From Giardia intestinalis (Eukaryota), in NCBI GenBank assembly GCA_000002435.2, contig CM018791.1: a stretch of DNA of 64,000 nt; one strand, written 5' to 3'. Positions within the stretch are counted from its first letter, which is position 1, and every line of letters starts with the position of its first letter. The notes under the pieces were generated by a model that did not search any database, was not told the DNA's origin, and saw only the letters and a program-made list of their open reading frames with translations. Below, one piece after another: positions 26,400 through 37,838 of this stretch. The position numbers were made by a program, and so were the translations under genes.

Positions 26400-29315
26400 A
26401 CCAGATTCTAGCGTCGTATTGAGCTGGCTACGAATATGTCTTGATGAAGATCGCAGAGCCGCGTCAATGATGGGGTAGCTGCCGATGGTATCTGCGGCCG
26501 TGGCTACCGGTTCAGCAGCGTCATAATAGGAGTGATTGGAACTAGTACCAAAATATCCTGCTTCTAAGGCTATGATTTTCTTCATCAAACGACGGGTTTC
26601 TTCGTCCCGCAAATAAAGCTCCTTCTTTAGTAAGCCAATTTCACTCTGGTGCATGAGTATCTCGTTTCTGAGTATAGAGATCAGTTCATCTCGCCGCGCT
26701 AGCTCCACTTGCTCACGATTCTCTATTGACCGAAGCTTGTCGGTGTTTGCACTGTTTGCAGAATGCATGGTTGCCAGTAGTGAGTTATAGGACCTATTCT
26801 GGCGTTCTGTGGCGTCCAGCTTGCCTTGAAGATCGGCCAATCGGGCTGTTAGCTTTTCTGTTTCGTCTTTCGCTGCCGCTTCTGCCTCTGCAAGAGAGTT
26901 GTCTTTTTTCTTTACATCCTCGAGTAAAGTAGCCTTATCCTTCTCAAGAGAAGAGAGCTTATCACGGAGAATCGAGACAGACTGCTTCTCCTTCTCTAGC
27001 TGCTCCGTCAATGCCACACATCGAGCATTGACTTCAGTCAGTATCGTGGTGGTAGCTTCGTTGTGTTCTGGTGAGGGGTCTGTAGATGTGTGCTTATTGG
27101 CCGTCTCGATGTCTGCCATATGCGTCCTGGCAACATTGGTATGTGCGCTCCCTAGTTCAAAGCGTGTTAAATCCTTCTGCAACTCTGCTATTCTGCATTC
27201 GTTTTCCTCAAGCTTTTCTGATAGTAGTTTCTTTTCCACCTCCAGTCTCATCCTAGCCTCTTCCTTCTCAGAAAGCTTCTTTTGCAGCTCGACAATCTCG
27301 CCCTTTGCAGACCCAAGATCTGCCTTCAGAAGATTAATTTGATTCTTGAGCAGTTGTGTTGGCCTGGGGATCATGGTACCGGGCACCATCATGGCATCTT
27401 CCGTGTTGCTGCCCAACGAGCTCCTCTTGCTGCCGTTGTCCTCTTCTTCTGAGGTAAGATCTCGCGGAGTGGTGTTTTGGCTGGCTTCGTACTCGCGCTG
27501 AAGCTGTTTTATCTGCTTTAGAGCATTCTTTAGCTTTGTCTTGTCACTTTTCAGCTTGTCATTTTCTTGACGAAGATGTTGGTTTTCCTGTTCCAACAGG
27601 TTATCGGTCTTTTCCATATGCTTAGCCCTCGAAGGCGTAGAGTCTACATTCTTAAATTGCGACGAAGTTGGCGCAATAGATGCAGGCATAACGACATTGT
27701 TAGCGTCTGACTCTGAATAGATAGTCTCTTCGACAAGTTCCATTTGTATCTTGGGCATTACAGAATCAGTGTGCACGTGACGGGATAATCCTGTTCCAGT
27801 GCGCATTAGAGCGCTTACTTTGGCGCTGAGTTCCCGGTTCTCTGCCTCAAGAGCACTCTTTTCCGCACAGTGTTGCTCAGCAATGGTAGCTTGAAACTGG
27901 GCTTGTTCATCCAACTCGGTCGTCACTTGTTGCAGCTGCGCTTGGAGCGCAATGATCTCCATTTGCTTGTCCATGACCTGTTGTTGATATGTCAACTGTA
28001 GGGCCTCGATATGCTGCGAAGCTTGAAGGGAAGATTGTGGATAGTCAGAAGAACGAGCATCACGCTGCCAATTGACTGACTCTTTAAGCTGGGCTCCAAG
28101 CTCCAAGATTTGCTCCTCTAGGTCAGAAATCTTTTTCTTGAGTTGATTAGATTCATTAGTAGATAGCTTCGCAAACATTTCACGTAGATCTGTCTGAGCT
28201 TCTAGAAGATTAGATTTGGTCATAGTAAGAGTATCTTCAAGCTCATTGACGTAGTTTCTTAGATACTGCACTTCTGCAGCATACTTATCTCGTTCTTCCT
28301 GTAGAAGGGCACTATGAGCTTTCTCATGCTCCAGCTCCTTCTCAATCTCTAACTCTTTCTCAAGTTCCCTTTTCGCGGTCACTTCATTAAGTTTGATTAT
28401 TACGGACGATAGCTCCTGGTCCTTAGCATGCAGCTTTCTTTTATGTTCTAATAGCTCTTGCTCTGTTTGCGCAAGCTTTTCTTCGGCCGCCCGTGCTCGT
28501 GTTTCAAAGAGTTTAGCCCTCTCTATATGGTAGTTCAGTGTTGCCTGCTCGGAGCTGTTAGTCTTAGCAGTCAACATCTGAGCAAGCTCCTCCTTTTCAG
28601 CCAAGAGACGATTGCTTGTGATCGTCGAGTTTGCCAATAGCTGCAGGAGCTTACGGATCTTCTGGGCGTCTGTGGCATCCGGATAGGTGAGGTTAAGTGT
28701 CTGCTGAATGGAATCAATGGATACACCCTGGCGTCGAAGCTGCTGTTCGTCGTCTTCTGTAACTTCTAGGCGGCTGAGTTCACTGGTCATGGATATACTA
28801 ATTGATTGAGATAAGTCTGGATCTTGTCGCGGTGCTGGATCAGGCTTTTTCTGAGGAGGTCTAGTGAAGGAGCGCCCAGAGGAGTTGGCAGTCAAGTGTG
28901 CAAAACGGTTAGGGCGTCCAGTTCCCTCGGAAATCACCACTGCCCGTTTGTTCGGCGTAGTGCTCAGAGTCACCACGTCCTGAGAAGTGCTAGAAAGCTC
29001 GTCAACCTCGATGGCTCCGCAAAGTGCGCTGCCTGAGAGCTGCGAAGTCTGTCTAGCGAGAGAGTTGTGAGAAGGAAAAGGGGCAGGTTGAGCAAAGCGC
29101 CCGCTCTGTTGGAGTTCAGACAAACCGTCTGTATCTTGATGGCTGGGGGTGCCATAGTTCATTGTACTCGGGGTGTAATAGTTCTGAGTGATGGCGGGGA
29201 AAGACGGCGGGTGTATCACTGGGGAAATGTCCGTGCATGTTGGGGACGTCATATCAAAGTCACCCCTGCCAGAAGCTTCATGCACAGCCGCAGTGGAACC
29301 CGTTTGCTTTGACAT
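26385..29315 (-). CDS. Long coiled-coil protein (976 aa).
   Basis: A Ser/Pro-rich N-terminal region of about 230 aa is followed by roughly 700 aa of heptad-repeat coiled coil (E/K/L/Q-rich, e.g. LEEQILELGAQLKES..., ELQKKLSEKEEARMRLEVEKKLL). The track start at 29366 is a GTG. The first ATG is at 29315 (gtaaaattctaaatttcATG). Confidence 0.8.
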   Translation of the reverse strand: MSKQTGSTAAVHEASGRGDFDMTSPTCTDISPVIHPPSFPAITQNYYTPSTMNYGTPSHQDTDGLSELQQSGRFAQPAPFPSHNSLARQTSQLSGSALCGAIEVDELSSTSQDVVTLSTTPNKRAVVISEGTGRPNRFAHLTANSSGRSFTRPPQKKPDPAPRQDPDLSQSISISMTSELSRLEVTEDDEQQLRRQGVSIDSIQQTLNLTYPDATDAQKIRKLLQLLANSTITSNRLLAEKEELAQMLTAKTNSSEQATLNYHIERAKLFETRARAAEEKLAQTEQELLEHKRKLHAKDQELSSVIIKLNEVTAKRELEKELEIEKELEHEKAHSALLQEERDKYAAEVQYLRNYVNELEDTLTMTKSNLLEAQTDLREMFAKLSTNESNQLKKKISDLEEQILELGAQLKESVNWQRDARSSDYPQSSLQASQHIEALQLTYQQQVMDKQMEIIALQAQLQQVTTELDEQAQFQATIAEQHCAEKSALEAENRELSAKVSALMRTGTGLSRHVHTDSVMPKIQMELVEETIYSESDANNVVMPASIAPTSSQFKNVDSTPSRAKHMEKTDNLLEQENQHLRQENDKLKSDKTKLKNALKQIKQLQREYEASQNTTPRDLTSEEEDNGSKRSSLGSNTEDAMMVPGTMIPRPTQLLKNQINLLKADLGSAKGEIVELQKKLSEKEEARMRLEVEKKLLSEKLEENECRIAELQKDLTRFELGSAHTNVARTHMADIETANKHTSTDPSPEHNEATTTILTEVNARCVALTEQLEKEKQSVSILRDKLSSLEKDKATLLEDVKKKDNSLAEAEAAAKDETEKLTARLADLQGKLDATERQNRSYNSLLATMHSANSANTDKLRSIENREQVELARRDELISILRNEILMHQSEIGLLKKELYLRDEETRRLMKKIIALEAGYFGTSSNHSYYDAAEPVATAADTIGSYPIIDAALRSSSRHIRSQLNTTLESGLNNF

Positions 29316-29341
29316 GAAATTTAGAATTTTACACTGGAAAA

Positions 29342-31654
29342 CTATGGGTTCTTGTCGCAGATGCACTTAGCAGACTCTAGGCGTGTTGTTGTTATGCTTC
29401 CGCAGCTAATGCTGGGAGTATTTAAGGCAGAGCTTACAGAACCCGAAGCCGCATCAACTTGTACCGTAAGAACTGTATCTGGCTTATTAGCCCCAGAGAC
29501 CGTTAATGTTGATGTGCTTCCAGCACCGTTCAAAGACACACTATTTGCACCTGCAGGGGAATCCTTTATAACAACGAAGGAGACAGTAATCTCCGAGGTA
29601 CCGGTTAAGGCAGAGATTGTCAGGTTCGTATCTTCTGTTGAATCCGATTGAATATGAGCGAAGTGATTAGGAGATGCATCTGCCTCTGCCGTGATGTTAA
29701 CGCCGCGCTCAGGAGCCAGAGGTGTAACCGTTACTGGACCGCCGGTAATAGAGAATGTATTTCCAGCTCCTCCAACGCTGAGAGTGGAAGTCGTAATGGT
29801 TTCTACCGTCAAGGTTCGATGAGCAATTGTATCGACCGTCATGGACTCTGTAAACACGAGTGTGTTTGCAGTCAGTTTAGAGTTGGAAAGAGACATCGTC
29901 TGAGCATGTATAACGGGTACGTCTAGTTTTTCTGCATTGAGGGTAGTTGCATTCAGCTGTGAACTAATCTCTAGGGTCGTAGCGTTGAGAGTGGCTCTCG
30001 CGCTGGCACTATTCTTAATAAGAGAGACGTTGAATGCAATGGTCACGGCCTTGATTGTGTCAAAGAATGCCCTAGTGACCGTTAGTGCAGAATTAGAAAG
30101 AGTTGTGCCGCTGTTCAATGACTCCAATTGAGTGTCAACGGTCGTCACGTTAATAGAACTACTTCTCTGCTCTAAAAAGCTAGGCGTGATTAGCGAATAC
30201 GTTGTTGGTGCACCTGCTTGTCCTGTAGGTGGTGCTTGTAAAATCGCAGGGTCAGACCAGTTGCTGTACCCCACCAGAGCTTTATTTGTCACTGTCAGAT
30301 TGGCAACCTTTAGGTCAACTAGCTTGATGTAAAGGACAACAATCAATATTATCAATATTATAGTTAATAGGAAAAGAATAATGATGATTATGTAAATCAA
30401 GAGGTGTTCACGCATGACGCTCAGGCACCCGCCGTGTCTCTGCTCCTTCATAATGGTTCTAGATTCATAAAGGGTCGACTCCTCATTAATCAGCACGCGA
30501 GACTCGGCGGTGTAGACAGCATCGTCTATTGATTCAATATGGGAAACAGCTGAAGACTCTGCGCTCGAGATCTCTATAAGCGGGCCCGTACGTCTTACTG
30601 GTACTACTTTAGCTACTGTGATGGCTGGCAGCGGTTCTTGTGACTGCCCTGTGCTCTCCGAGGGCGGTTGATATGTCTCCTGGTTTTGCGGGATTGCATT
30701 AATCGTCTCAACAGGCAATGGAAAAGTTGTAGTAGAGAACCTCTGAAACTGTTCCCTAATAGTTGGATGCAAAATAGCCCCGTCGAAGTAGAAGACGAAG
30801 CGGGGCGCCCCGAAGGAGGCGGCCTCGCGGGCGGCGGCGGGGCGCTCGAGGTACGCCTGGACCTTCCGGTAGCGGAGGTACGTGAGCTCGGCGGCGCGGC
30901 TCCCGGGCTGGGCGCGGAGCTCGGCGGCCGGGGGCGCGTAGAGGACGAAGCGGCGGTCCCGGACGAGGTCGCTCCGGCCCTGGGCGAAGGCGGGGTTGAC
31001 GAAGACCGAGAGCGCGTGGCCGGCGCGGGCGCGGGTGACGACGGCCCCGAGGAAGAGGTCGCCGGGGAGCCGGAGGGGGACGGGGCCCGCGAAGCCCAGG
31101 GGGACGGCGACGGCGCGGAGGAGGGGCGGCCGGGCGAGCGGGAGGGCGTCTGGGCGGGTGCAGCTCTCGCAGCGGAGGCCGACCCGCCGGGCCCCTGCGG
31201 CGAGGGCCTCTCCGGGCGCGAGGACGGCGCTCGCCCCGGGCTGGGAGGGCGCGCCGCACGCGGGGCAGGGCCCGGGGAGCCCGAAGAGCGCGGCGCAGAC
31301 GGGGGCCGGGAGGGAGCGGACGAGCGCCGGGAGCGCCCCGGGGTCTGGGAGCGGCCCGAGCTGCGCGGCAAGAGGCCCCAGGTCGAGCGTCCCCGCCCCG
31401 GCGAGCGCGGCGCGGAGGAGCCCGGCCCAGAGCTGCGGGGCGTCTCCGGCGGGCGGGGGGCCGTCGAGGAGGGCCTCGAGCCGCCCGAGGACGAGCGCCT
31501 GGTGGACGACGCGGAGGAACGCGCCTGCGAGGCCCTCGGGGTCGCCGGCGAGGACGAACGAGGGCGCGGCTGCCGCGGGCGGGCGTCCGTCCCCCGCCGC
31601 CGTGGGCCGGGGCGCCGGGTCGAAGAGGCCCGAGGGCTGCGGCGCAGACGTCAT
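29342..31654 (-). CDS. Compositionally chimeric type II membrane protein. The N-terminal ~290 aa are encoded by ~78% GC DNA (Ala/Pro/Gly/Leu/Arg-rich, with a CPxCG...CxxC zinc-ribbon-like motif). Then comes one TM helix and a ~380-aa Thr/Ser/Asn-rich, N-glycosylation-dense ectodomain.
   Basis: A continuous 770-codon frame starts at the ATG at 31652-31654; the track start at 31666 is a TTG. Codons in the 5' part are almost all NNC/NNG (ttc gtc ctc tac, aag gtc cag gcg tac ctc gag cgc), which supports true coding in this frame. The switch to AT-rich codons is abrupt at ...ttc gac ggg gct att ttg cat cca... (~30775). The TM helix is LLIYIIIIILFLLTIILIILIVVLYI. The C-terminal domain has about 20 NxS/T sequons and repeated NATTL motifs. 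Confidence 0.6.
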   Translation of the reverse strand: MTSAPQPSGLFDPAPRPTAAGDGRPPAAAAPSFVLAGDPEGLAGAFLRVVHQALVLGRLEALLDGPPPAGDAPQLWAGLLRAALAGAGTLDLGPLAAQLGPLPDPGALPALVRSLPAPVCAALFGLPGPCPACGAPSQPGASAVLAPGEALAAGARRVGLRCESCTRPDALPLARPPLLRAVAVPLGFAGPVPLRLPGDLFLGAVVTRARAGHALSVFVNPAFAQGRSDLVRDRRFVLYAPPAAELRAQPGSRAAELTYLRYRKVQAYLERPAAAREAASFGAPRFVFYFDGAILHPTIREQFQRFSTTTFPLPVETINAIPQNQETYQPPSESTGQSQEPLPAITVAKVVPVRRTGPLIEISSAESSAVSHIESIDDAVYTAESRVLINEESTLYESRTIMKEQRHGGCLSVMREHLLIYIIIIILFLLTIILIILIVVLYIKLVDLKVANLTVTNKALVGYSNWSDPAILQAPPTGQAGAPTTYSLITPSFLEQRSSSINVTTVDTQLESLNSGTTLSNSALTVTRAFFDTIKAVTIAFNVSLIKNSASARATLNATTLEISSQLNATTLNAEKLDVPVIHAQTMSLSNSKLTANTLVFTESMTVDTIAHRTLTVETITTSTLSVGGAGNTFSITGGPVTVTPLAPERGVNITAEADASPNHFAHIQSDSTEDTNLTISALTGTSEITVSFVVIKDSPAGANSVSLNGAGSTSTLTVSGANKPDTVLTVQVDAASGSVSSALNTPSISCGSITTTRLESAKCICDKNP

Positions 31655-31655
31655 T
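30775..31655. other. High-GC compositional island (~0.88 kb, roughly 75-80% GC) set in ~47% GC flanks.
   Basis: Visible directly in the sequence: runs such as gcggggcgccccgaaggaggcggcctcgcgggcggcggcgggg. All six frames are open across the island because the stop codons are AT-rich. It is bounded on one side by the ATG at 31654 and the tRNA, and on the other by an abrupt return to AT-rich sequence at ~30775. Confidence 0.85.
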
Positions 31656-31664
31656 TTGGGCGGC

Positions 31665-31669
31665 AAAAA
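31665..31669 (-). terminator. RNA polymerase III oligo-T terminator for tRNA-Thr.
   Basis: The 3' trailer is C-TTTTT-G directly after the discriminator base. It lies 11-15 nt upstream of the ATG of the next gene. Confidence 0.55.
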
Positions 31670-31670
31670 G

Positions 31671-31744
31671 AGCCGAATACGGTGCTCGAAACCGTGACCT
31701 CGACATTACTAGTGTCGCGCTCTAGCCAACTGAGCTAATTCGGC
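31671..31744 (-). tRNA. tRNA-Thr: tRNA-Thr (anticodon AGU; A34 is presumably converted to inosine), 74 nt.
   Basis: The reverse complement reads GCCGAAT-TA-GCTC-AGTTGGCTA-GAGC-G-CGACA-CTAGTAA-TGTCG-AGGTC-ACGGT-TTCGAGC-ACCGT-ATTCGGC-T. This gives a 7-bp acceptor stem, a 4-bp D stem with GG in the loop, a 5-bp anticodon stem with U33 and A37, a 5-nt variable loop, and a 5-bp T stem with a TTCGAGC loop. A T5 run immediately follows the 3' end. Confidence 0.9.
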
Positions 31745-31805
31745 ACGGGCACCCCCCAACGCCTGAAATGGCTATTGTCTTTTTCCTGAGGGGACCGCAG
31801 TTTAC

Positions 31806-32870
31806 TCAGAGCTCCTTGTCCCCATCGGGGCGAACCACCCGGCCGTCCTTCCCGAGCGGGACGCCTGTGAGCTGCCGCGTCTTGTGCTTCTTGAGGAACT
31901 CGATGATAGAGCCCACCGGGTCCTCTCCAAAGTCTGCCTGGAAGACCTGCTTCTTAGGGCTGGCGTTATCATAGATGACAATCTTAGGGCCAGCAGAGGA
32001 GTCCACGTCGATACCCTCGAAGAACTGCTTCCACGACCCAGTATCCGAGAATGTAAGCGTATAACGCATTTCGATGAAGGAAGTCTCGTCCTTCGGGTTG
32101 AGGATAATCTCTCTCGCAAACTTGGAAAGGGTCTTGAGGAGCTTGTTGTCCCGCTCCGTATCTAGTGCAAAGATTACAGTTGGCCTGCCACGCTCGTGGA
32201 TCAAGGCCGCTGCATTGTCCTGTCCCAGTAAGGGAAGAAAGGCGTACCGATGCGAGGCAACGAACTTCTTGATATAATTGACGTTACTGTTCTCCGTCCC
32301 CTTGTAGACGATGTGTTCTCCTTCGCGAACAGCAGTCAGCTTCCATTCTTTTGCCTTGAGGAAACCAAAGAAGTGTTCACCCTTGAAATCTGTGAAGTAC
32401 GACTCGTAGATCTCCTTATACTCAGGGGCTTCGAGCAGGAAGTAATTGAGAGCACGGACCTTCCGAGACTTCTCAGCGCAATCTTCAACACTGTCACACT
32501 TTGTAAGAGTTGGCTCGAGCATGGAGTCGGCCCACTTCATCATCTCGTCCTTCTCGCGTGCCTTTTCATACTTAAAGACAGCGCCGCTGCTCTGCAGGAG
32601 CTTGATGGTCGGGTAGCCGTTAACACCGTACTTCCCGCAAATGCTACTGTGGGCTGTGCAGTCAACTTCGGCCACAGGCATTGTCGTGTATTCGTTGGAC
32701 ATCTCCTCCCAGGTGGGAGCCAGCTTCTTGCAGTGTCCGCACCACGGAGCGTAGAACTTTACAAAGAGGTTCTTGTGCTTCTCGAGCTCACTATCGAAGT
32801 TGTCCTGCGTGAGAACGAGCACCTCCGCGACAGACACTGCGAGGAGAAGAGCGAAGATGGGGGGAATCAT
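31806..32870 (-). CDS. Protein disulfide isomerase (single thioredoxin-domain Giardia-type PDI, 354 aa).
   Basis: Signal peptide MIPPIFALLLAVSVAEV. Thioredoxin active site FYAPWCGHCKKLAP. C-terminal GDKEL ER-retrieval-like tail. The stop is embedded in TGAGTAAAC, so the poly(A) signal overlaps the stop. AT-rich initiator. Confidence 0.9.
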   Translation of the reverse strand: MIPPIFALLLAVSVAEVLVLTQDNFDSELEKHKNLFVKFYAPWCGHCKKLAPTWEEMSNEYTTMPVAEVDCTAHSSICGKYGVNGYPTIKLLQSSGAVFKYEKAREKDEMMKWADSMLEPTLTKCDSVEDCAEKSRKVRALNYFLLEAPEYKEIYESYFTDFKGEHFFGFLKAKEWKLTAVREGEHIVYKGTENSNVNYIKKFVASHRYAFLPLLGQDNAAALIHERGRPTVIFALDTERDNKLLKTLSKFAREIILNPKDETSFIEMRYTLTFSDTGSWKQFFEGIDVDSSAGPKIVIYDNASPKKQVFQADFGEDPVGSIIEFLKKHKTRQLTGVPLGKDGRVVRPDGDKEL

Positions 32871-32906
32871 ACCACAAGTTTTAAATTGACGCTTCTTTTT
32901 TTGATC
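32871..32906. promoter_or_regulatory. 36-bp AT-rich divergent promoter/initiator region shared by the PDI gene (minus) and the pseudouridine synthase gene (plus).
   Basis: accacaagttttaaattgacgcttctttttttgatc lies between the two divergent ATGs. Its composition matches the short Giardia core promoters. Confidence 0.5.
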
Positions 32907-34310
32907 ATGTCAAATGACGGTATACCTGGCTTCGGAAATGGCCTATCTATCACAAAATGTGGCGTAGGCAGTGCAGACGCGTGCGAGGAGCCGGCGCCCA
33001 AGCAATTTCGTCCTAAGCTGGTTCATATCGCTGTGGCCCTAGGGTATGTCGGAACGCGCTACAGTGGCTCCCAATGGCAGGCACCGTCGGCGACACATCC
33101 AGATATTCGCACTGTTGAGGGGGAGATCTACGCTGCGATAGAAGCCGCAGGGATTCTGTACGGACGGGACATCAAATCCATTGGATGGACTCGGTGCTCA
33201 CGCACAGACAGGTCTGTTTCAGCTGCAATGGCGGTGTTTTCGTTCTTTGGTCCTGGGCACCTTGACCTTGTCCAAGCTCTCCAGCCCCATCTCCCCAAGG
33301 ATATTTCTATCTTTGGTACCGTCCGGGTTCCACCCAAGTTTAGCGCCAAAATGGCGTGCACAAGTAGGACCTATGAGTATATGATGCCCCTTGTGTTCCT
33401 CTTACCCAGCTCTCAGGAAGAAGCCTCTGAACCATGTCAAGACGTGCAGGCATTCTTTTCGTACTTGGACAGCCCATACTCTGCCGAGAGCACTGAAACC
33501 GTTAGGGAAGCGTGTTCGCGGTTATATACTGCACAGCGTCATGATATCCTCGACTTCTTGCGATTGGATGACGAGCTGCAGAAGATACGGACTCAGGTTC
33601 GCATCCGTGCTTCACACGATTCACCTGCAGTAATATTTGACACAATGCTTCAGCCCTTCTTGCAGCAGCTAGTAACAACTGCTTTTCTAGCCAAAATACG
33701 AGCGTACCACAACTTTACAGAAGACAATGTGCAGCCGTCTGCCAGCAGCAGAAAGATCCTGTCTTGCTCAGTGTCTCTCTCCGCCGCCTTTGACTCTCAG
33801 ACTGACGCCATAAAGGACAAACCAGCCGCAGAACTGTATACGAAGGTAACCATCTGCGGCCAAGCATTTCTCATGTACCAGATCAGAAGAATGATGGGAG
33901 CTCTTGTGGCTGTTCTTAGGGGATGGATTCCCGCATCCTTCTTATATTTTGCTTTCCAAACGCGCACCAAGCACTTGCGTATATCGACGGCACCTGGTTC
34001 CTATCTTCTACTCAAGCAACCCAACTATGAGCACCTTCTATCGAAGAAGGACTTCACTCAGCATGGTGTGTTTGTCTCTGAAGACGAAAGAATCAAGGAC
34101 TTGGCCGAACGCTTTAAGGTAGAGAACATTTACCCTGAAATAGTGCGACTTCACAAGGACATAATTGCAGAAGGCCGAGTTCAAGCTATTCTTGATGAGA
34201 TGGAACACGAGCTTTGTAAGCATGGAAATGGCTGGGCACAATCCAAGACCCTCTTTTGCGATGACATCCGAACACAGGCAGACATTGTCAGTAGGACGAT
34301 TACAATCTAA
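32907..34310 (+). CDS. tRNA pseudouridine synthase, TruA/Pus1 family (467 aa).
   Basis: VALGYVGTRYSGSQWQ matches the TruA YDG(T/S)xYxGxQxQ motif. GWTRCSRTDRSVSA matches the catalytic RTDxGVHA motif. The track ORF starts at 32250 and would run antisense through the PDI gene. The first sensible ATG is at 32907 (ttttttgatcATG). Confidence 0.8.
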   Translation: MSNDGIPGFGNGLSITKCGVGSADACEEPAPKQFRPKLVHIAVALGYVGTRYSGSQWQAPSATHPDIRTVEGEIYAAIEAAGILYGRDIKSIGWTRCSRTDRSVSAAMAVFSFFGPGHLDLVQALQPHLPKDISIFGTVRVPPKFSAKMACTSRTYEYMMPLVFLLPSSQEEASEPCQDVQAFFSYLDSPYSAESTETVREACSRLYTAQRHDILDFLRLDDELQKIRTQVRIRASHDSPAVIFDTMLQPFLQQLVTTAFLAKIRAYHNFTEDNVQPSASSRKILSCSVSLSAAFDSQTDAIKDKPAAELYTKVTICGQAFLMYQIRRMMGALVAVLRGWIPASFLYFAFQTRTKHLRISTAPGSYLLLKQPNYEHLLSKKDFTQHGVFVSEDERIKDLAERFKVENIYPEIVRLHKDIIAEGRVQAILDEMEHELCKHGNGWAQSKTLFCDDIRTQADIVSRTITI

Positions 34311-34313
34311 AGA

Positions 34314-34320
34314 AGTAAAA
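34314..34320 (+). promoter_or_regulatory. Poly(A) signal AGTAAAA inside the 17-bp spacer between the Pus stop and the next ATG.
   Basis: The sequence is taaagaAGTAAAAaattaccATG. The TAA at 34308-34310 ends Pus, and the ATG at 34328 starts the next gene. Confidence 0.5.
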
Positions 34321-34327
34321 AATTACC

Positions 34328-36325
34328 ATGGTATGGAATAAGCCAGAGCTTCTACAGGAGATCCTCGAGCTTATCCCTCGCGCACGGTACCTCACAATAG
34401 ACTCAGAGTTCTTCTGTGGCCAGGAAATGGCTATGCCCAGCTTTCTTACTCCCGAAGCTTTTTATGAAAGATATCGGGAGCACCATCGGAATCAGTACAT
34501 TGCCCAGCTTGGCATTACTATCGCCATTCCAGATCCATCTATTTCGGCATCCGACTCCATCAATACTCAAATTTATTCTCCAAACAAAGCTTGTGAGAGG
34601 CTTGGACTTCCTCACCTCTTTGACTCTTCCTTCAGGCGTTTCTCGCTGAACACCCGGGTCTCAGAAGTCACTAAATTCTCGGTCGAAACCCTTACTTTTT
34701 TGAAGTCGAACGGCTTCAGCCTCGATAATTGGCTCGATACAGCAGTGGATCTAACCACACACCCCAGGGCTGTGATTGATCAATGCGCACAATTCTGGAC
34801 ACGCATCTTTGCAGCGATAGATTCTGTTCACGGGCCAAAGGGCTTCGGGACCGCTGGAGCAATAGCTCCTGAAGTCTTTCAAGCATTAAATCCAAATGGA
34901 AATCCAAATGGGAGCCAACCGGACAAGAAGGCGTCAAGTGGGATAGCCAAGAAATGCTTACAGGATGCGTGTGGGCTAAGCACTAATTTCCTTGCTCCTG
35001 TGGCACACGCGACAGGGTTTGCTGAGGGCTCTATCCCGCAGGTTTTCTTCACATATACAGCAGGTTGTCTCTATGAAACAGCTGTCTCTATAGATTATAG
35101 CACCCTCTTTGACTATCTTGGCTTTTTCTTGTCTGAGTTCCAGCGTGAGAACGCCAGCTTCAATTCAGATAAGAAACTTGAGTACTACATCACCATCACT
35201 CCTGATAATGGATATCCCTATGCGGTAGTCGCAAACTACGTTGATCTGTTGCGAGAAGATATCGACTCTCTGACTGGAGACTGCTCTCTAGATCTAGAGG
35301 CTAAAGTGCATGCATCTGCTCACTACTACCACCGTAGTAACAAGAGCAATCCAAAAATACTCTTATCCATACGTATTTGGCGCACCCGGGAAGAGGCTCA
35401 GCTTCATACGCACCAAGTGATCCAAAAGATGAAGACTGAGCTCTATGGTCTGCGGGCATTTACTGATGCTGTCTGCAAACATAACGTGCCTCTTGTGCTC
35501 TTTTCTGGCTGCACTGACATTTACTTGACACTGGCGTCTGTCTATGGAGAGCACTATCTTTCTACCTATGCTCAGTTTCTCACCTTAGTTTCCAACACCT
35601 TCCCGCGCTGTTTTGACCTGAAGATCTTTGTAGACTTGCCTCCCATTATCAATCACCTCAAGACCAATCTCTCCTTAGGCTCTCGTTCCTTGTCACAGAT
35701 CTTCAAGATAACATCGTATGGTCTCCAGTCAGCACAGTCAGATGCAGATGATAATAACATGGTGCACGACGCGGGCTACGACAGCTTGATGACAGCTCTT
35801 TCATTTGAATGGGTTCTTGGCCACTTCCTCGCCATAACCGGAACAATCTCCCTCGATGATCACAAGCGTTTGCTCTACAAGGTCTCTTCTATCAAGGTCA
35901 ACAAAGATCTACCCACAACTGATCTTCCATTATTTTTCAATTACTGCTGGGATAAGTTCTACATCCACCAGAGCGCGTTTCCATATTCATTAAAAGATCA
36001 CACTTCTCCAGTTAGTAGTGTTGACACCCATCAGCCAACTCTCACCCAGTATGTCCTCTATCCCGTCAAAGACCTTAGCGTTGTGGTAAAAGCGCTCTAT
36101 CCCCTCTCATCTCACCTCAAAAAAATGTACCCCGACCGTCCTTGTCACTATTATATTGAAAGAGGCAGAGATCATGGCCGTGTGTACATTCCCACAACAC
36201 ACCCCGGTGCTGCCACAATCCTTAATGAGGTCATCAATGCAGAGAGTTCTGGAAGTCAATATTCTTATGTAGACACAAGTATCGCTGAGCTACACACGCT
36301 TCAATATGCTCAGAAGAGCTTCTGA
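34328..36325 (+). CDS. PARN/CAF1-family DEDDh 3'-5' exoribonuclease (poly(A)-specific ribonuclease-like, 665 aa).
   Basis: N-terminal RYLTIDSEFFCGQ matches the PARN (F/I)AIDGEFSG exonuclease motif I. MVHDAGYDSLMTALSF matches the H-x-AGYD-(A/S) motif III. Length is similar to PARN (about 640 aa). Confidence 0.75.
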   Translation: MVWNKPELLQEILELIPRARYLTIDSEFFCGQEMAMPSFLTPEAFYERYREHHRNQYIAQLGITIAIPDPSISASDSINTQIYSPNKACERLGLPHLFDSSFRRFSLNTRVSEVTKFSVETLTFLKSNGFSLDNWLDTAVDLTTHPRAVIDQCAQFWTRIFAAIDSVHGPKGFGTAGAIAPEVFQALNPNGNPNGSQPDKKASSGIAKKCLQDACGLSTNFLAPVAHATGFAEGSIPQVFFTYTAGCLYETAVSIDYSTLFDYLGFFLSEFQRENASFNSDKKLEYYITITPDNGYPYAVVANYVDLLREDIDSLTGDCSLDLEAKVHASAHYYHRSNKSNPKILLSIRIWRTREEAQLHTHQVIQKMKTELYGLRAFTDAVCKHNVPLVLFSGCTDIYLTLASVYGEHYLSTYAQFLTLVSNTFPRCFDLKIFVDLPPIINHLKTNLSLGSRSLSQIFKITSYGLQSAQSDADDNNMVHDAGYDSLMTALSFEWVLGHFLAITGTISLDDHKRLLYKVSSIKVNKDLPTTDLPLFFNYCWDKFYIHQSAFPYSLKDHTSPVSSVDTHQPTLTQYVLYPVKDLSVVVKALYPLSSHLKKMYPDRPCHYYIERGRDHGRVYIPTTHPGAATILNEVINAESSGSQYSYVDTSIAELHTLQYAQKSF

Positions 36326-36351
36326 ACAGCATTACAGGGCCAGTTCACAGA

Positions 36352-37290
36352 TCAATGTTCACGAAGCTCCACAGTAGATCCTGGCTTGAGTGCCTCCGCA
36401 CCCGCTATAAGGATTGCGTCACACATCTCACGGCCGAGGAACACTTCTCCCTGATATGTTACTATGATATTAGGACTAAGACCAAGGAAGACATTCCTTC
36501 CGAGTGTATTTCTAGAGCTTCTAGAGTTAGCAGCAGACAACCTTTGGGACATATTTGCCGATGTGGTAGTCATCGAAAGGAGGGTCTGTGCAAAAGCCTC
36601 TCTCATAAACCTGTTGCATGTGACCTTATTAGATCCATGAAAGGTCTTTGGTAGGCAGCAAATGATGTTGTTAGTCTGTGAATTATCCTCTTTTCTCTTT
36701 CTATGACTGAGGGCAGAGATATCATTGATGAGAATCAAGGCGTCTCCGCAGTTATCTGTTCGGCGATGGGGTCTCTGCAAAGCCACTTGTGAGAACTCTG
36801 TGTGCTTGGTAATGTACGCCTCATATGCAGTTATCGACCGGAAGACCTTAGCATTAGGATACCGGAGTTTATAGAATTGGGTGTCGTCCCGGGAAGATGT
36901 GCTAATGATTATGGAAACAGCATCCTCGTAGTTAGACACCGATGTTATGTCTTCAAAGAAGCGCATTTGACTCTCCTCCAGTGCCAAAGGATTCGCAATC
37001 AAAAGTGTTCCGCTCACCGGAGACAGGAAGACAATCATGGGCCTATCCAGGTAGACGAGATATATGTTATCAGTGATCTTTTTAATTACTGCGCTGGTGC
37101 ACTTTAACGATACGTGCGAGCGTGAAAGCCCAAGCAACTTCTTGTTGTATCGTCTACGAGCTGTTAAGTGCGATACAATGAATAAAAGCAATAGAATGCT
37201 GCCTATGACCGCCAAACTTACATAATTACGCCTCGCATACTCCTGTAATTCAGTTGCCAAGCTTTTGCCGGCAAATGGCCAACTTTGCAT
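36352..37290 (-). CDS. Hypothetical type II membrane protein (312 aa).
   Basis: The track start at 37383 is a TTG. The first ATG is at 37290, in the context ttttctattaaaATG. The N-terminal signal-anchor helix is YVSLAVIGSILLLLFIVSHL, followed by a basic stretch. The rest is globular with no recognisable motif. Confidence 0.55.
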   Translation of the reverse strand: MQSWPFAGKSLATELQEYARRNYVSLAVIGSILLLLFIVSHLTARRRYNKKLLGLSRSHVSLKCTSAVIKKITDNIYLVYLDRPMIVFLSPVSGTLLIANPLALEESQMRFFEDITSVSNYEDAVSIIISTSSRDDTQFYKLRYPNAKVFRSITAYEAYITKHTEFSQVALQRPHRRTDNCGDALILINDISALSHRKRKEDNSQTNNIICCLPKTFHGSNKVTCNRFMREAFAQTLLSMTTTSANMSQRLSAANSRSSRNTLGRNVFLGLSPNIIVTYQGEVFLGREMCDAILIAGAEALKPGSTVELREH

Positions 37291-37301
37291 TTTAATAGAA
37301 A

Positions 37302-37838
37302 ATGCCTCCAGCCTCCACAAAGAAGCCAGCCGCGAAGAAGGAAGAACAGAGAGTCGAGGGGCATGGAAAGTTCTGGTTTCCAAATGGTGACATTTATATA
37401 GGGGATTATTACGAGGAAGGACCCATCAGAAAACGCCACGGAAAGGGTCGGTACACTATGCATTGCCAAGAGGACATGGAAGACCCAGAGGTTCCCGAAG
37501 AGATTCGCTCCCAGGACATCCCTGCGCGGCTCCCACAGGACATAGTTGCTCTGGACGGGACGTGGGATGCAGATGCGTTTATTGAAGGAACGGTGCGCTT
37601 TGCCAGTGGCGCATTCTACACTGGAAAGATAGATAGAGAAGGATTTTATGTCAGCGGTGGCCGGTATACTTGGCCGGATGGGAGCTGGTATGAGGGAGAC
37701 ATCTCCCGCAACATACTCCATGGCCACGGGAAGTACTATTCTTCTCACACAGATACAGTGACAGAGGGTGCCTTCCGGAATAATCACGGACCAGGCCTTG
37801 ATGAGCGCTATGCAAGCCTCAATCCATGCCAACCTTAA
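37302..37838 (+). CDS. MORN-repeat protein (178 aa).
   Basis: Repeated YxGxxxxGxxHGxG motifs: GHGKFWFPNGDIYIGDY, RHGKGRYT, YTGKIDREGFYVSGGRYTWPDGSWYEGD, HGHGKYY. Initiator is taatagaaaATG. Confidence 0.8.
   Translation: MPPASTKKPAAKKEEQRVEGHGKFWFPNGDIYIGDYYEEGPIRKRHGKGRYTMHCQEDMEDPEVPEEIRSQDIPARLPQDIVALDGTWDADAFIEGTVRFASGAFYTGKIDREGFYVSGGRYTWPDGSWYEGDISRNILHGHGKYYSSHTDTVTEGAFRNNHGPGLDERYASLNPCQP

What the first reader, a model, noticed from the sequence alone, without database searches (positions are those of the whole stretch)
30775..31655. About 0.9 kb island of ~78% GC that forms, in frame, the N-terminal domain of an otherwise AT-rich membrane-protein gene
GC content jumps from about 45% to about 78% within a single codon (…ttc gac ggg | gct att ttg cat…). 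It returns to normal immediately upstream of the ATG at 31654. Inside the island the minus-strand reading frame has near-saturated GC at third positions while first and second positions vary. That is the signature of genuine coding sequence evolved in a high-GC genome, not of low-complexity DNA.

The encoded ~290 aa segment is Ala/Pro/Gly/Leu/Arg-rich and includes a CPACG-x25-CESC zinc-ribbon-like motif. It does not resemble any Giardia family I recognise. It is fused to a typical Giardia-composition TM helix and a mucin-like ectodomain.

I can think of three explanations. It could be a recent in-frame capture of foreign DNA (bacterial, viral or algal), a local GC-biased conversion tract, or an assembly chimera.
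Basis: seen in the sequence. Interest (0 to 1): 0.85.

Follow-up and report, generated by a model that had tools for sequence, protein, structure and literature searches.

The report
GC-rich pseudo-protease domain in Giardia
The 0.9 kb, 81% GC island is native Giardia coding sequence for a previously unrecognised inactive ubiquitin-protease-like (USP-fold) domain, kept nearly identical between two otherwise very different genes, most likely by GC-biased gene conversion; it is neither foreign DNA nor an assembly error.

Summary
Window 30775-31655 is 81% GC against 47% elsewhere (z=14). GC1/GC2/GC3 are 0.85/0.62/0.96 in the frame of gene GL50803_0028832 (Giardia duodenalis WB, 770 aa), and the step falls at one codon.

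Foreign capture and chimera are rejected. The island occurs at the same junction in five independent assemblies (A1, A2, B twice, E). Its protein belongs to a Giardia-specific family: an N-terminal ~290 aa module, a TM helix and a Ser/Thr-rich ectodomain. Normal-composition paralogs include GL50803_3564.

A second locus, p2, beside CTP synthase, carries the same GC-rich module. The modules are 91-100% identical in DNA, while the rest of the genes share about 31% of residues. Lineage-specific substitutions are shared by both paralogs (7-9 sites against 0), which is concerted evolution.

Synonymous divergence between assemblages A and B is 0.12 in the module and 1.05 downstream. The G. muris ortholog has a weaker island (68%) ending at the homologous position.

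Best explanation: recurrent gene conversion with GC bias. That step is inferred, not shown.

The parts
29342..31654 (-). Whole gene 'p1' (GL50803_0028832), 770 codons plus stop. It encodes a single-pass membrane protein.
   Evidence: ORF. It is 100% identical to P0001, 'hypothetical protein GL50803_0028832 [Giardia duodenalis]'.
30779..31654 (-). GC-rich island, codons 1-292. It encodes the core of a USP-fold (pseudo-deubiquitinase) domain.
31160..31267 (-). Zinc-ribbon 'fingers' motif, CPAC(130-133)...CESC(162-165).
   Evidence: Positions are. C162 and C165 are invariant and C130 and C133 nearly invariant in the family. A weak profile match to the USPL1 zinc ribbon lies in this segment.
30740..30778 (-). 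Tail of the conserved module (AILHPTIREQFQRF) at ordinary GC. Protein homology continues past the GC step.
   Evidence: These columns are aligned across the family in A2. The DNA here is 33-40% identical between the paralogs, against 91-100% inside the island.
30326..30403 (-). Transmembrane helix, L418-I443.
   Evidence: Kyte-Doolittle windows above 1.8. AF2 gives a helix with pLDDT 76-90 in model m7e1ce272460a.
29345..30325 (-). Ser/Thr/Asn-rich C-terminal region (presumed ectodomain) ending in CxC. Fold unknown.
   Evidence: Ser+Thr is 29%, with 8 NxS/T sequons. AF2 pLDDT is 38, so no fold is assigned. C360 and C362 of the A3 alignment are invariant.
31670..31744 (-). tRNA-Thr(AGU) gene on the same strand, ending 15 nt upstream of the ATG. 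It marks the 5' edge of the island.
   Evidence: ARAGORN and Rfam RF00005 at 62 bits. It is also present in DH (L005 5923-5997) and absent at the G. muris loci.

Best explanation
The island is the native coding sequence for the N-terminal, presumably cytosolic, domain of a Giardia-specific single-pass membrane protein.

The domain. It has the fold of a ubiquitin-specific protease (USP), with palm, thumb and zinc-ribbon fingers. It lacks the catalytic cysteine, so it is most likely a non-catalytic pseudo-USP. I infer a ubiquitin- or Ubl-binding or scaffolding role.

The composition. The extreme GC is a DNA-level effect, not a requirement of the protein. This ~0.88 kb segment is repeatedly exchanged by gene conversion with a paralogous locus, p2, beside CTP synthase. 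The two genes are otherwise about as diverged as G. duodenalis-G. muris orthologs. Heteroduplex repair biased towards G/C (GC-biased gene conversion) would push every free site to G or C. Purifying selection would hold the fold-critical residues.

The 3' edge. The sharp step is where nucleotide homology between the two paralogs ends, so conversion tracts cannot extend further.

Status of each step.
- Shown: native family domain, USP fold, absent catalytic Cys, concerted evolution, saturated GC3, ~9-fold reduced synonymous divergence.
- Inferred: that the bias comes from conversion repair, and the protein's cellular role.
For: Native origin
- The only homologs found are Giardia-type proteins with the same architecture. 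They include the normal-composition paralog GL50803_3564 (module GC 0.46) and G. muris GMRT_13203 and GMRT_13193.

Fold
- The AF2 model has pLDDT 83.2 and pTM 0.86.
- All 50 listed Foldseek PDB hits are USPs or the PAN2 pseudo-USP, best E = 1e-5.

Pseudoenzyme
- The residue at the Cys-box position (A45) is A, S or G across the family. No Cys or His column is conserved other than the four zinc-ribbon Cys.

Concerted evolution
- Module identity is 98.2% for A-p1 vs E-p2, 92.3% for A-p1 vs B-p2 and 91.1% for B-p1 vs B-p2.
- The next 300 nt are 66-70% identical between orthologs and 33-40% between paralogs.
- E-p1 and E-p2 are identical over 165 nt, including E-specific changes.
- Over 142 six-way columns, 7 sites are B-specific and shared by both B paralogs, and 1-2 are E-specific and shared. 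None groups the sequences by paralog.
- The C-terminal parts of p1 and p2 share only 31% of residues over 190 aa, similar to p2 vs G. muris GMRT_13193 (29%).

Nucleotide-level drive
- GC3 is 0.96. GARP amino acids make up 54% of the module against 25% in the paralog.
- Module dS is 0.117 against 1.05 in the C-terminal part of the same gene, between assemblages A and B. Eight of 13 third-position differences are C<->G.
- Background nt identity is 86.2% for A-E and 73.4% for A-B.

Precedent in the literature
- Giardia rDNA, including its spacers, is ~75% GC, and gBGC has been proposed as the cause (PMC10123126).
- Genes inside detected conversion tracts are GC-enriched in Giardia, median 0.541 vs 0.488 (PMC12669663).
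Against: - The G. muris ortholog GMRT_13193 already has a 68% GC module ending at the homologous position. Its only detected paralog in G. muris is 30% identical, with no DNA similarity. Ectopic p1-p2 conversion therefore cannot be the sole or original cause.
- No assemblage-A copy of p2 was returned by the protein search. The WB island may currently have no ectopic partner, yet it stays at 81% GC.
- GC-biased mismatch repair has not been demonstrated in Giardia.
- The E-p1/E-p2 identity comes from two contig ends of one draft assembly. It could partly reflect co-assembly of reads from both copies.
- The B-p1 fragment (145 nt) has indels typical of a poor contig end.
- Module dN/dS is 0.58, so purifying selection on the protein looks weak by that ratio. 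The ratio is inflated by the suppressed dS.
- The pseudoenzyme call rests on a model plus an alignment, not on a superposition of catalytic residues.
Confidence: 0.6

Rival explanations
1. A local mutational bias without conversion. The segment would be a hotspot for AT->GC mutation, for example error-prone repair or a replication- or transcription-associated process tied to this coding segment. Similarity between paralogs would be maintained separately.
For: The G. muris single-locus ortholog also has a GC-enriched module with the same 3' limit and no detectable conversion partner. The coding strand is strongly C over G skewed, with third positions C194 vs G87 and GC skew ~0.2. That suggests a strand-asymmetric process.
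Against: It does not explain lineage-specific substitutions shared by both paralogs, including AT-ward ones such as TAC->TAT and GGG->GGA. It also does not explain why the tract ends exactly where paralog homology ends. No known mechanism confines a mutation bias from the start codon to a domain boundary.
Confidence: 0.15
2. Selection on the nucleic acid itself. The GC-rich, C-rich stretch would serve a DNA or RNA function, such as chromatin or nucleosome exclusion, a replication or recombination element, or control of translation or mRNA stability. It would therefore be conserved at synonymous sites.
For: Synonymous divergence is ~9-fold lower than in the rest of the gene. The tract limits are conserved between G. 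duodenalis and G. muris.
Against: There is no Rfam match other than the adjacent tRNA. The sense RNA folds less stably than all 20 dinucleotide shuffles, z = +2.09. There are no internal repeats of note. G. muris keeps only 68% GC and has almost no DNA similarity to the WB island, so no specific sequence is conserved. The reduced dS is what a strong G/C fixation bias predicts, since mostly C<->G changes remain.
Confidence: 0.1
3. Horizontal transfer. The module would have been captured in frame from a high-GC bacterium, virus or alga.
For: Composition and codon usage resemble high-GC genomes. There is no Pfam hit and no PDB sequence hit.
Against: An exhaustive HMMER search found only Giardia-type relatives and no bacterial, viral or algal ones. 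Normal-GC paralogs align end to end and share the whole-protein architecture. The island is present in assemblages A1, A2, B and E, and in weaker form in G. muris.
Confidence: 0.02
4. Assembly chimera or artefact in the WB reference.
For: Four draft assemblies break inside the island, and old gene models are truncated.
Against: DH (A2) assembled the complete island inside a 126,686-bp contig, 874/876 nt identical to WB. All the broken contigs run into the island across the same in-frame junction. The breaks are what a two-copy, 81% GC repeat would cause.
Confidence: 0.01

Closest known systems
Mouse Fxy/Mid1 gene spanning the pseudoautosomal boundary, and other gBGC-driven segments such as rDNA and conversion-prone multigene families (from my own knowledge; for rDNA, Escobar et al. 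2011 as cited in PMC10123126)
   Same: One part of a single gene shows a sharp rise in GC3 and a shift towards Gly/Ala/Arg/Pro, while the rest stays at genome-typical composition. The shift is tied to a locally high rate of recombination or conversion. Giardia's own rDNA is ~75% GC.
   Different: The partner here is a paralogous locus, plus possibly alleles in a tetraploid organism regarded as asexual, rather than an obligatory meiotic crossover region. The tract runs from the start codon to near the end of a protein domain. It is old, since a weaker form exists in G. muris. Its synonymous divergence is reduced rather than accelerated.
Catalytically inactive USP-fold domains: PAN2 pseudo-ubiquitin hydrolase and Sad1/USP39
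   Different: There is no detectable sequence similarity: no Pfam PF00443 or PF13423 hit, and hhalign against a Giardia UCH finds nothing. The domain sits at the N-terminus of a single-pass membrane protein with a large Ser/Thr-rich C-terminal region. I do not know of that architecture for PAN2 or Sad1. The family is restricted to Giardia and close relatives.
GL50803_3564, GMRT_13203, GMRT_13193 and the C-terminal half of the Giardia 'putative lecithin-cholesterol acyl transferase' (2125 aa)
   Same: Same module, with 23-37% identity to the WB module in the A2 alignment and shared invariant residues. It is followed by a TM helix and a Thr/Ser/Asn-rich region.
   Different: Those copies have ordinary composition: module GC is 0.46 in GL50803_3564 and 0.53 in GMRT_13203. 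The exception is GMRT_13193 at 0.68. All are annotated as hypothetical, and none is annotated as USP-like.

Membership tests
USP / peptidase C19 fold superfamily | Palm-thumb-fingers USP fold | tested here: met
USP / peptidase C19 fold superfamily | Zinc-ribbon CxxC...CxxC in the fingers | tested here: met
   The four Cys are C130, C133, C162 and C165, all invariant or nearly so.
Active USP deubiquitinases (Pfam PF00443 UCH / PF13423 UCH_1) | Catalytic Cys in the Cys box at the N-terminus of helix 1 | tested here: not met
   The equivalent position is A45 in ...GLAGAFLRVVHQAL. It is A, S or G in all nine full-length family members, and no conserved Cys lies nearby. The equivalence was made by motif alignment to USP7 recalled from memory and by the model's helix start at residue 42. 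It was not made by superposition.
Active USP deubiquitinases (Pfam PF00443 UCH / PF13423 UCH_1) | Catalytic His in the His box, conserved | tested here: not met
   p1 and p2 have H213 (AGHALSVFVNP) at the expected place just before strand 214-219. Other members have Tyr or other residues there, so the column is not conserved.
Active USP deubiquitinases (Pfam PF00443 UCH / PF13423 UCH_1) | Significant match to the family profile | tested here: not met
   There is no Pfam hit at E <= 1 for p1 or for eight relatives. The PDB profile search gives only USPL1 at E ~1. hhalign against a Giardia UCH gives probability 0.3%.
Active USP deubiquitinases (Pfam PF00443 UCH / PF13423 UCH_1) | Isopeptidase activity on ubiquitin or a Ubl | not testable with these tools
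   This needs a biochemical assay.
gBGC / concerted-evolution compositional island | GC3 far above the flanks and the genome, with GC1/GC2 and amino-acid composition pulled the same way | tested here: met
   GC1/2/3 is 0.85/0.62/0.96 against 0.47/0.48/0.44. GARP residues are 54% against 21-25%.
gBGC / concerted-evolution compositional island | Evidence of recurrent conversion in the same segment | tested here: met
   The paralogs group by lineage, not by locus: 7-9 sites against 0. Module identity is 91-100%, against unalignable flanks.
gBGC / concerted-evolution compositional island | Excess of AT->GC over GC->AT fixation, or a frequency skew in polymorphism | not tested
   Only 2 WB-DH differences exist in the module. 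No population data were available.
Horizontally transferred island | Closest relatives in a distant donor lineage, with patchy presence among close relatives | tested here: not met
   Only Giardia-type relatives were found. The island is present in assemblages A1, A2, B and E, and the orthologous island exists in G. muris.

The most novel reading that the evidence does not exclude
The island may be the footprint of a stable, ancient gene-conversion hotspot in Giardia, predating the G. muris / G. duodenalis split. At this hotspot, strongly GC-biased repair has overridden codon and amino-acid preferences of a functional domain and overwritten the homologous domain of a diverged paralog. If so, it is a natural reporter locus for homologous recombination and biased repair in an organism with no observed sexual cycle. 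It would also point to the same force as the cause of Giardia's unusually GC-rich rDNA.
Probability: 0.3. Interest if true: 0.8.

Novelty: new variant of a known kind. Interest (0 to 1): 0.55.

Why it matters
1. It replaces an attractive but wrong story (foreign DNA) with a testable native mechanism.

2. It gives what looks like the clearest single-locus case for ectopic gene conversion in Giardia, and probably for GC-biased repair. How much and what kind of recombination occurs in this organism is a long-standing question. The contrast inside one gene is quantitative: dS of 0.12 against 1.05, and GC3 of 0.96 against 0.44.

3. It uncovers a Giardia-specific family of membrane proteins carrying a cryptic USP-fold pseudoenzyme domain. 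Sequence-profile inventories of the ubiquitin system did not list it (PMC7029713).

4. There is a practical consequence. The island breaks short-read and 454 assemblies and has produced truncated gene models: 369 aa in the first WB annotation, 357 aa in P15 and 475 aa in BAH15c1. Comparative and proteomic work on these genes has therefore used wrong N-termini.

Tried and rejected
Searches that gave nothing useful
- The word-indexed protein search with the 292-aa module alone returned nothing, although an identical protein is in that database. The candidate list was probably swamped by low-complexity words such as poly-Ala. I read this as a limitation of the method, not as evidence of orphan status.
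- Pfam on p1 and eight relatives gave no family. PDB sequence and profile searches gave only E ~1 matches, including USPL1. hhalign against a Giardia UCH gave nothing.
- Exact look-ups of the window's own PDI gene and of p1 found no record.
- An exact 46-nt island pattern found nothing in the metagenome contigs.
- Full-text literature searches for the locus tags gave no papers. Supplements of PMC12669663 are not held.

Ideas rejected
- Fragment of Giardia's GC-rich rDNA, or another RNA gene: Rfam finds only the neighbouring tRNA.
- Structured RNA: the fold z-score is +2.09.
- Tandem or low-complexity repeat: only short chance repeats are present, and there is no second copy in the window.

Things that failed
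- The AF2 model of the C-terminal ectodomain had pLDDT 38 and was unusable, so no fold search was run on it.
- The afdb50 fold library was not available.

Left unresolved
- I tried to reconstruct the exact rearrangement history relative to G. muris. The neighbours of GMRT_13193 are split between the p1 and p2 loci and one block is inverted. The orientation of p1 does not fit a single simple inversion.
Full report

Yes. In 150-nt windows, GC is 0.76-0.84 between 30775 and 31674. It is 0.35-0.54 in the rest of the gene and 0.55-0.63 immediately upstream.

The 881-nt island is 80.7% GC. Other 881-nt windows of this 64 kb average 47.4% (sd 2.4, maximum 58.6), so z = 14.1. It is the only such island in the window.

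The 3' step is at one codon...ttc tac ttc gac ggg | gct att ttg....

In the minus-strand frame of ATG 31654, GC1/GC2/GC3 = 0.85/0.62/0.96. The remainder of the ORF is 0.47/0.48/0.44. Third positions are C194, G87, A8, T3.

Long ORFs occur in several frames of the island because stop codons are rare at this GC. ORF length alone proves nothing.

It ends 15 nt before the ATG.

**2. What is the gene?**

The 770-aa product is identical to 'hypothetical protein GL50803_0028832' of Giardia duodenalis WB. I call this gene p1.

Neighbours confirm a Giardia chromosome:
- a thioredoxin/PDI gene at 31806-32870;
- pseudouridine synthase and CAF1 at 33009-36307, and a coiled-coil gene at 26385-29366.

The first WB annotation of this gene was only 369 aa. 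The P15 model is 357 aa and the BAH15c1 model 475 aa.

**3. Not an artefact, not foreign**

The island and the same in-frame junction are present in five assemblies:
- DH (assemblage A2), complete inside a 126,686-bp contig and 874/876 nt identical to WB;
- BAH15c1 (assemblage B), where the contig starts inside the island;
- P15 (assemblage E), where a contig end lies inside the island;
- and at a second locus in two genomes (section 5).

An exhaustive HMMER search of 1.84 billion representative proteins with the 292-aa module found nine relatives. The eight full-length ones carry the module in the same position within a module + TM helix + Thr/Ser/Asn-rich architecture; the ninth is a 105-aa fragment. 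The relatives include:
- GL50803_3564 (WB);
- GMRT_13203 and GMRT_13193 (G. muris);
- the C-terminal half of a 2125-aa Giardia 'putative lecithin-cholesterol acyl transferase';
- four proteins from unnamed read-run assemblies.

The paralogs have ordinary composition. Module GC is 0.46 for GL50803_3564 and 0.53 for GMRT_13203, and 0.51-0.58 in the unnamed species. They align with p1 along the entire module, with invariant and near-invariant residues throughout.

Horizontal transfer and chimerism are therefore rejected.

**4. What does the island encode?**

Pfam and PDB sequence searches are empty. The family profile only grazes the zinc ribbon of USPL1, at E ~1.

An AlphaFold2 model built on the family alignment is confident, with mean pLDDT 83.2 and pTM 0.86.
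- All 50 listed Foldseek PDB matches are ubiquitin-specific proteases or the PAN2 pseudo-USP, best E = 1e-5.

The position that motif alignment equates with the catalytic Cys is A45, at the start of helix 42-57. It is Ala, Ser or Gly in every family member. H213 sits where the catalytic His would be, but that column is not conserved. The equivalences use USP7 motifs recalled from memory, not a superposition.

I therefore read the module as a pseudo-USP. It is a member of the fold superfamily, not of the active enzyme family.

With no signal peptide, a Cys4 zinc site and basic residues before the TM helix (L418-I443), the module is probably cytosolic and the Ser/Thr-rich part extracytosolic. 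This topology is inferred. The C-terminal region could not be modelled (pLDDT 38).

**5. Why is it so GC-rich?**

*A second locus.* A second locus, p2, lies beside CTP synthase and EMP24. It carries the same GC-rich module fused to a very different C-terminal part.
- L002 is from GCA_000498735.1. Its CTP synthase region is 78.6% identical to P15, which is the A-B level of divergence, so I treat it as assemblage B.
- L003 is from P15.

*Module identity.* DNA identity within the module:

| Comparison | Identity |
|---|---|
| A-p1 vs E-p2 | 98.2% |
| A-p1 vs B-p2 | 92.3% |
| B-p1 vs B-p2 | 91.1% |
| E-p1 vs E-p2 | 100% over 165 nt |

The 300 nt after the junction are 66-70% identical between orthologs. 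Between paralogs they are 33-40% identical, which is effectively unalignable.

Background coding identity around p1 is 86.2% for A-E and 73.4% for A-B.

*Site patterns.* In the 142 columns covered by all six sequences:
- seven substitutions are specific to B and shared by both B paralogs;
- one or two are specific to E and shared by both E paralogs;
- none groups p1 against p2.

*Age of the duplication.* The C-terminal parts of p1 and p2 share 31% of residues over 190 aa. That is about the same as p2 against its G. muris ortholog GMRT_13193, which is 29% and a reciprocal best match with the same CTP synthase/EMP24 neighbours.

Together these results indicate an old duplication with ongoing homogenisation of the module only. 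This is concerted evolution by ectopic gene conversion, and the conversion tract ends where homology ends.

*A nucleotide-level force.*
- GC3 is saturated.
- The amino-acid composition is dragged to 54% Gly/Ala/Arg/Pro, against 25% in the paralog.
- Conserved Phe, Tyr and Lys residues are kept with their GC-richest codons.
- Between assemblages A and B, dS is 0.117 in the module and 1.05 in the C-terminal part of the same gene. dN is 0.068 and 0.20 respectively. Eight of 13 third-position differences are C<->G.

This is what a strong fixation bias towards G/C predicts.

*Precedent.* GC-biased gene conversion is the known process that couples conversion with such a bias.
- Giardia rDNA, including its spacers, is ~75% GC, and gBGC has been suggested as the cause (PMC10123126).
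- Genes in detected conversion tracts are GC-enriched in Giardia (PMC12669663).

**6. What does not fit**

- GMRT_13193 of G. muris has a weaker island. Module GC is 0.68 against 0.47 for the rest. It starts at the ATG and ends within about 10 codons of the homologous position.
- No G. muris partner was found. The other G. muris family member is 30% identical, with no DNA similarity.
- No assemblage-A p2 protein was returned.

The enrichment is therefore older than, and not wholly dependent on, the p1-p2 exchange seen today. Allelic conversion in the tetraploid cell, a lost partner, or a different local bias must contribute.

Data caveats:
- The E-p1/E-p2 identity comes from two contig ends of one draft assembly.
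- The B-p1 fragment has indels typical of a poor contig end.

**7. Rivals**

- Local mutation bias does not explain the shared lineage-specific changes, including AT-ward ones.
- Selection on DNA or RNA has no support. There is no Rfam family. The sense RNA is less stable than every shuffle, z = +2.09. Almost no DNA sequence is conserved with G. muris.
- HGT and chimera are dealt with in section 3.

**8. Comparison with what is known**

In mechanism, the closest analogue is the mouse Fxy/Mid1 gene straddling the pseudoautosomal boundary, together with conversion-prone multigene families and rDNA (my own knowledge).

In protein terms, the closest are the pseudo-USP domains of PAN2 and Sad1/USP39.

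Neither the island nor the USP-like nature of this family appears in the searchable literature. An HMM-based inventory of the Giardia ubiquitin system does not list these genes.

**9. Verdict**

Its second idea, a GC-biased conversion tract, is the best-supported explanation at confidence ~0.6.

I rate it a new variant of a known kind, of moderate to good interest (0.55).
- It is a clean natural reporter for recombination and biased repair in Giardia.
- It reveals a cryptic pseudo-USP membrane-protein family.
- It explains recurrent assembly breaks and truncated gene models.

Noticed in passing
window 31670-31744 (-): A tRNA-Thr(AGU) gene ends 15 nt upstream of the p1 start codon on the same strand, so the p1 promoter must overlap the tRNA gene or its terminator. 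The arrangement is conserved in DH (L005 5923-5997) and absent at the G. muris family loci.
   Followed up: partly
L001 1-145; L002 1-417; L003 1-165; L008 1-186: Four draft-assembly contigs (BAH15c1, GCA_000498735.1, and P15 twice) all terminate inside the GC-rich module. Many short-read (Logan) assemblies yield p1 fragments that start just after it (P0043-P0045). Truncated public gene models result: 369, 357 and 475 aa, plus one 'partial'.
   Followed up: yes
L004 6001-6717 (G. muris CM016926.1): The GMRT_13193 module is 68% GC against 47% for the rest of the gene. The change point lies at the position homologous to the WB junction, and the upstream 82 nt are AT-rich. No conversion partner was found in G. 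muris.
   Followed up: partly
window 24561-37838 versus L004/L007: Gene order differs from G. muris. The neighbours of GMRT_13193 are split between the p1 locus (861-aa and 3392-aa gene homologs) and the p2 locus (CTP synthase, EMP24). The block PsiU-CAF1-296aa-191aa is inverted relative to those genes. Family genes sit at the rearrangement breakpoints, but the orientation of p1 does not fit one simple inversion.
   Followed up: partly
window 37864-62373 (+): A single uninterrupted ORF of 8169 codons, presumably one of Giardia's giant proteins.
   Followed up: no
window 29342-29366: The listed ORF of the downstream 993-aa coiled-coil gene (26385-29366, GTG start in the mechanical list) overlaps the last 25 nt of p1. 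The same overlap is annotated in DH (L005 8301-8325).
   Followed up: no
P0012/P0025 residues 1150-1434; L009 20085-22571: The 2125-aa Giardia 'putative lecithin-cholesterol acyl transferase' contains the same pseudo-USP module internally, followed by a Cys-rich stretch, a TM helix and a Thr-rich region. It looks like an LCAT domain fused to a complete family member. In an unnamed species (SRR31929897) an LCAT gene lies about 4.5 kb from two tandem family members.
   Followed up: no
window 31750-31974: GC is mildly raised (0.61) in the 3' end of the PDI gene just beyond the tRNA. This could be spill-over from whatever process drives the island.
   Followed up: no
The word-indexed protein search returned nothing for the 292-aa module alone, although a 100% identical protein is in that database. 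Low-complexity words probably saturate the 8000-candidate list. A null from that tool on GC-rich-encoded proteins is not evidence of absence.
   Followed up: yes
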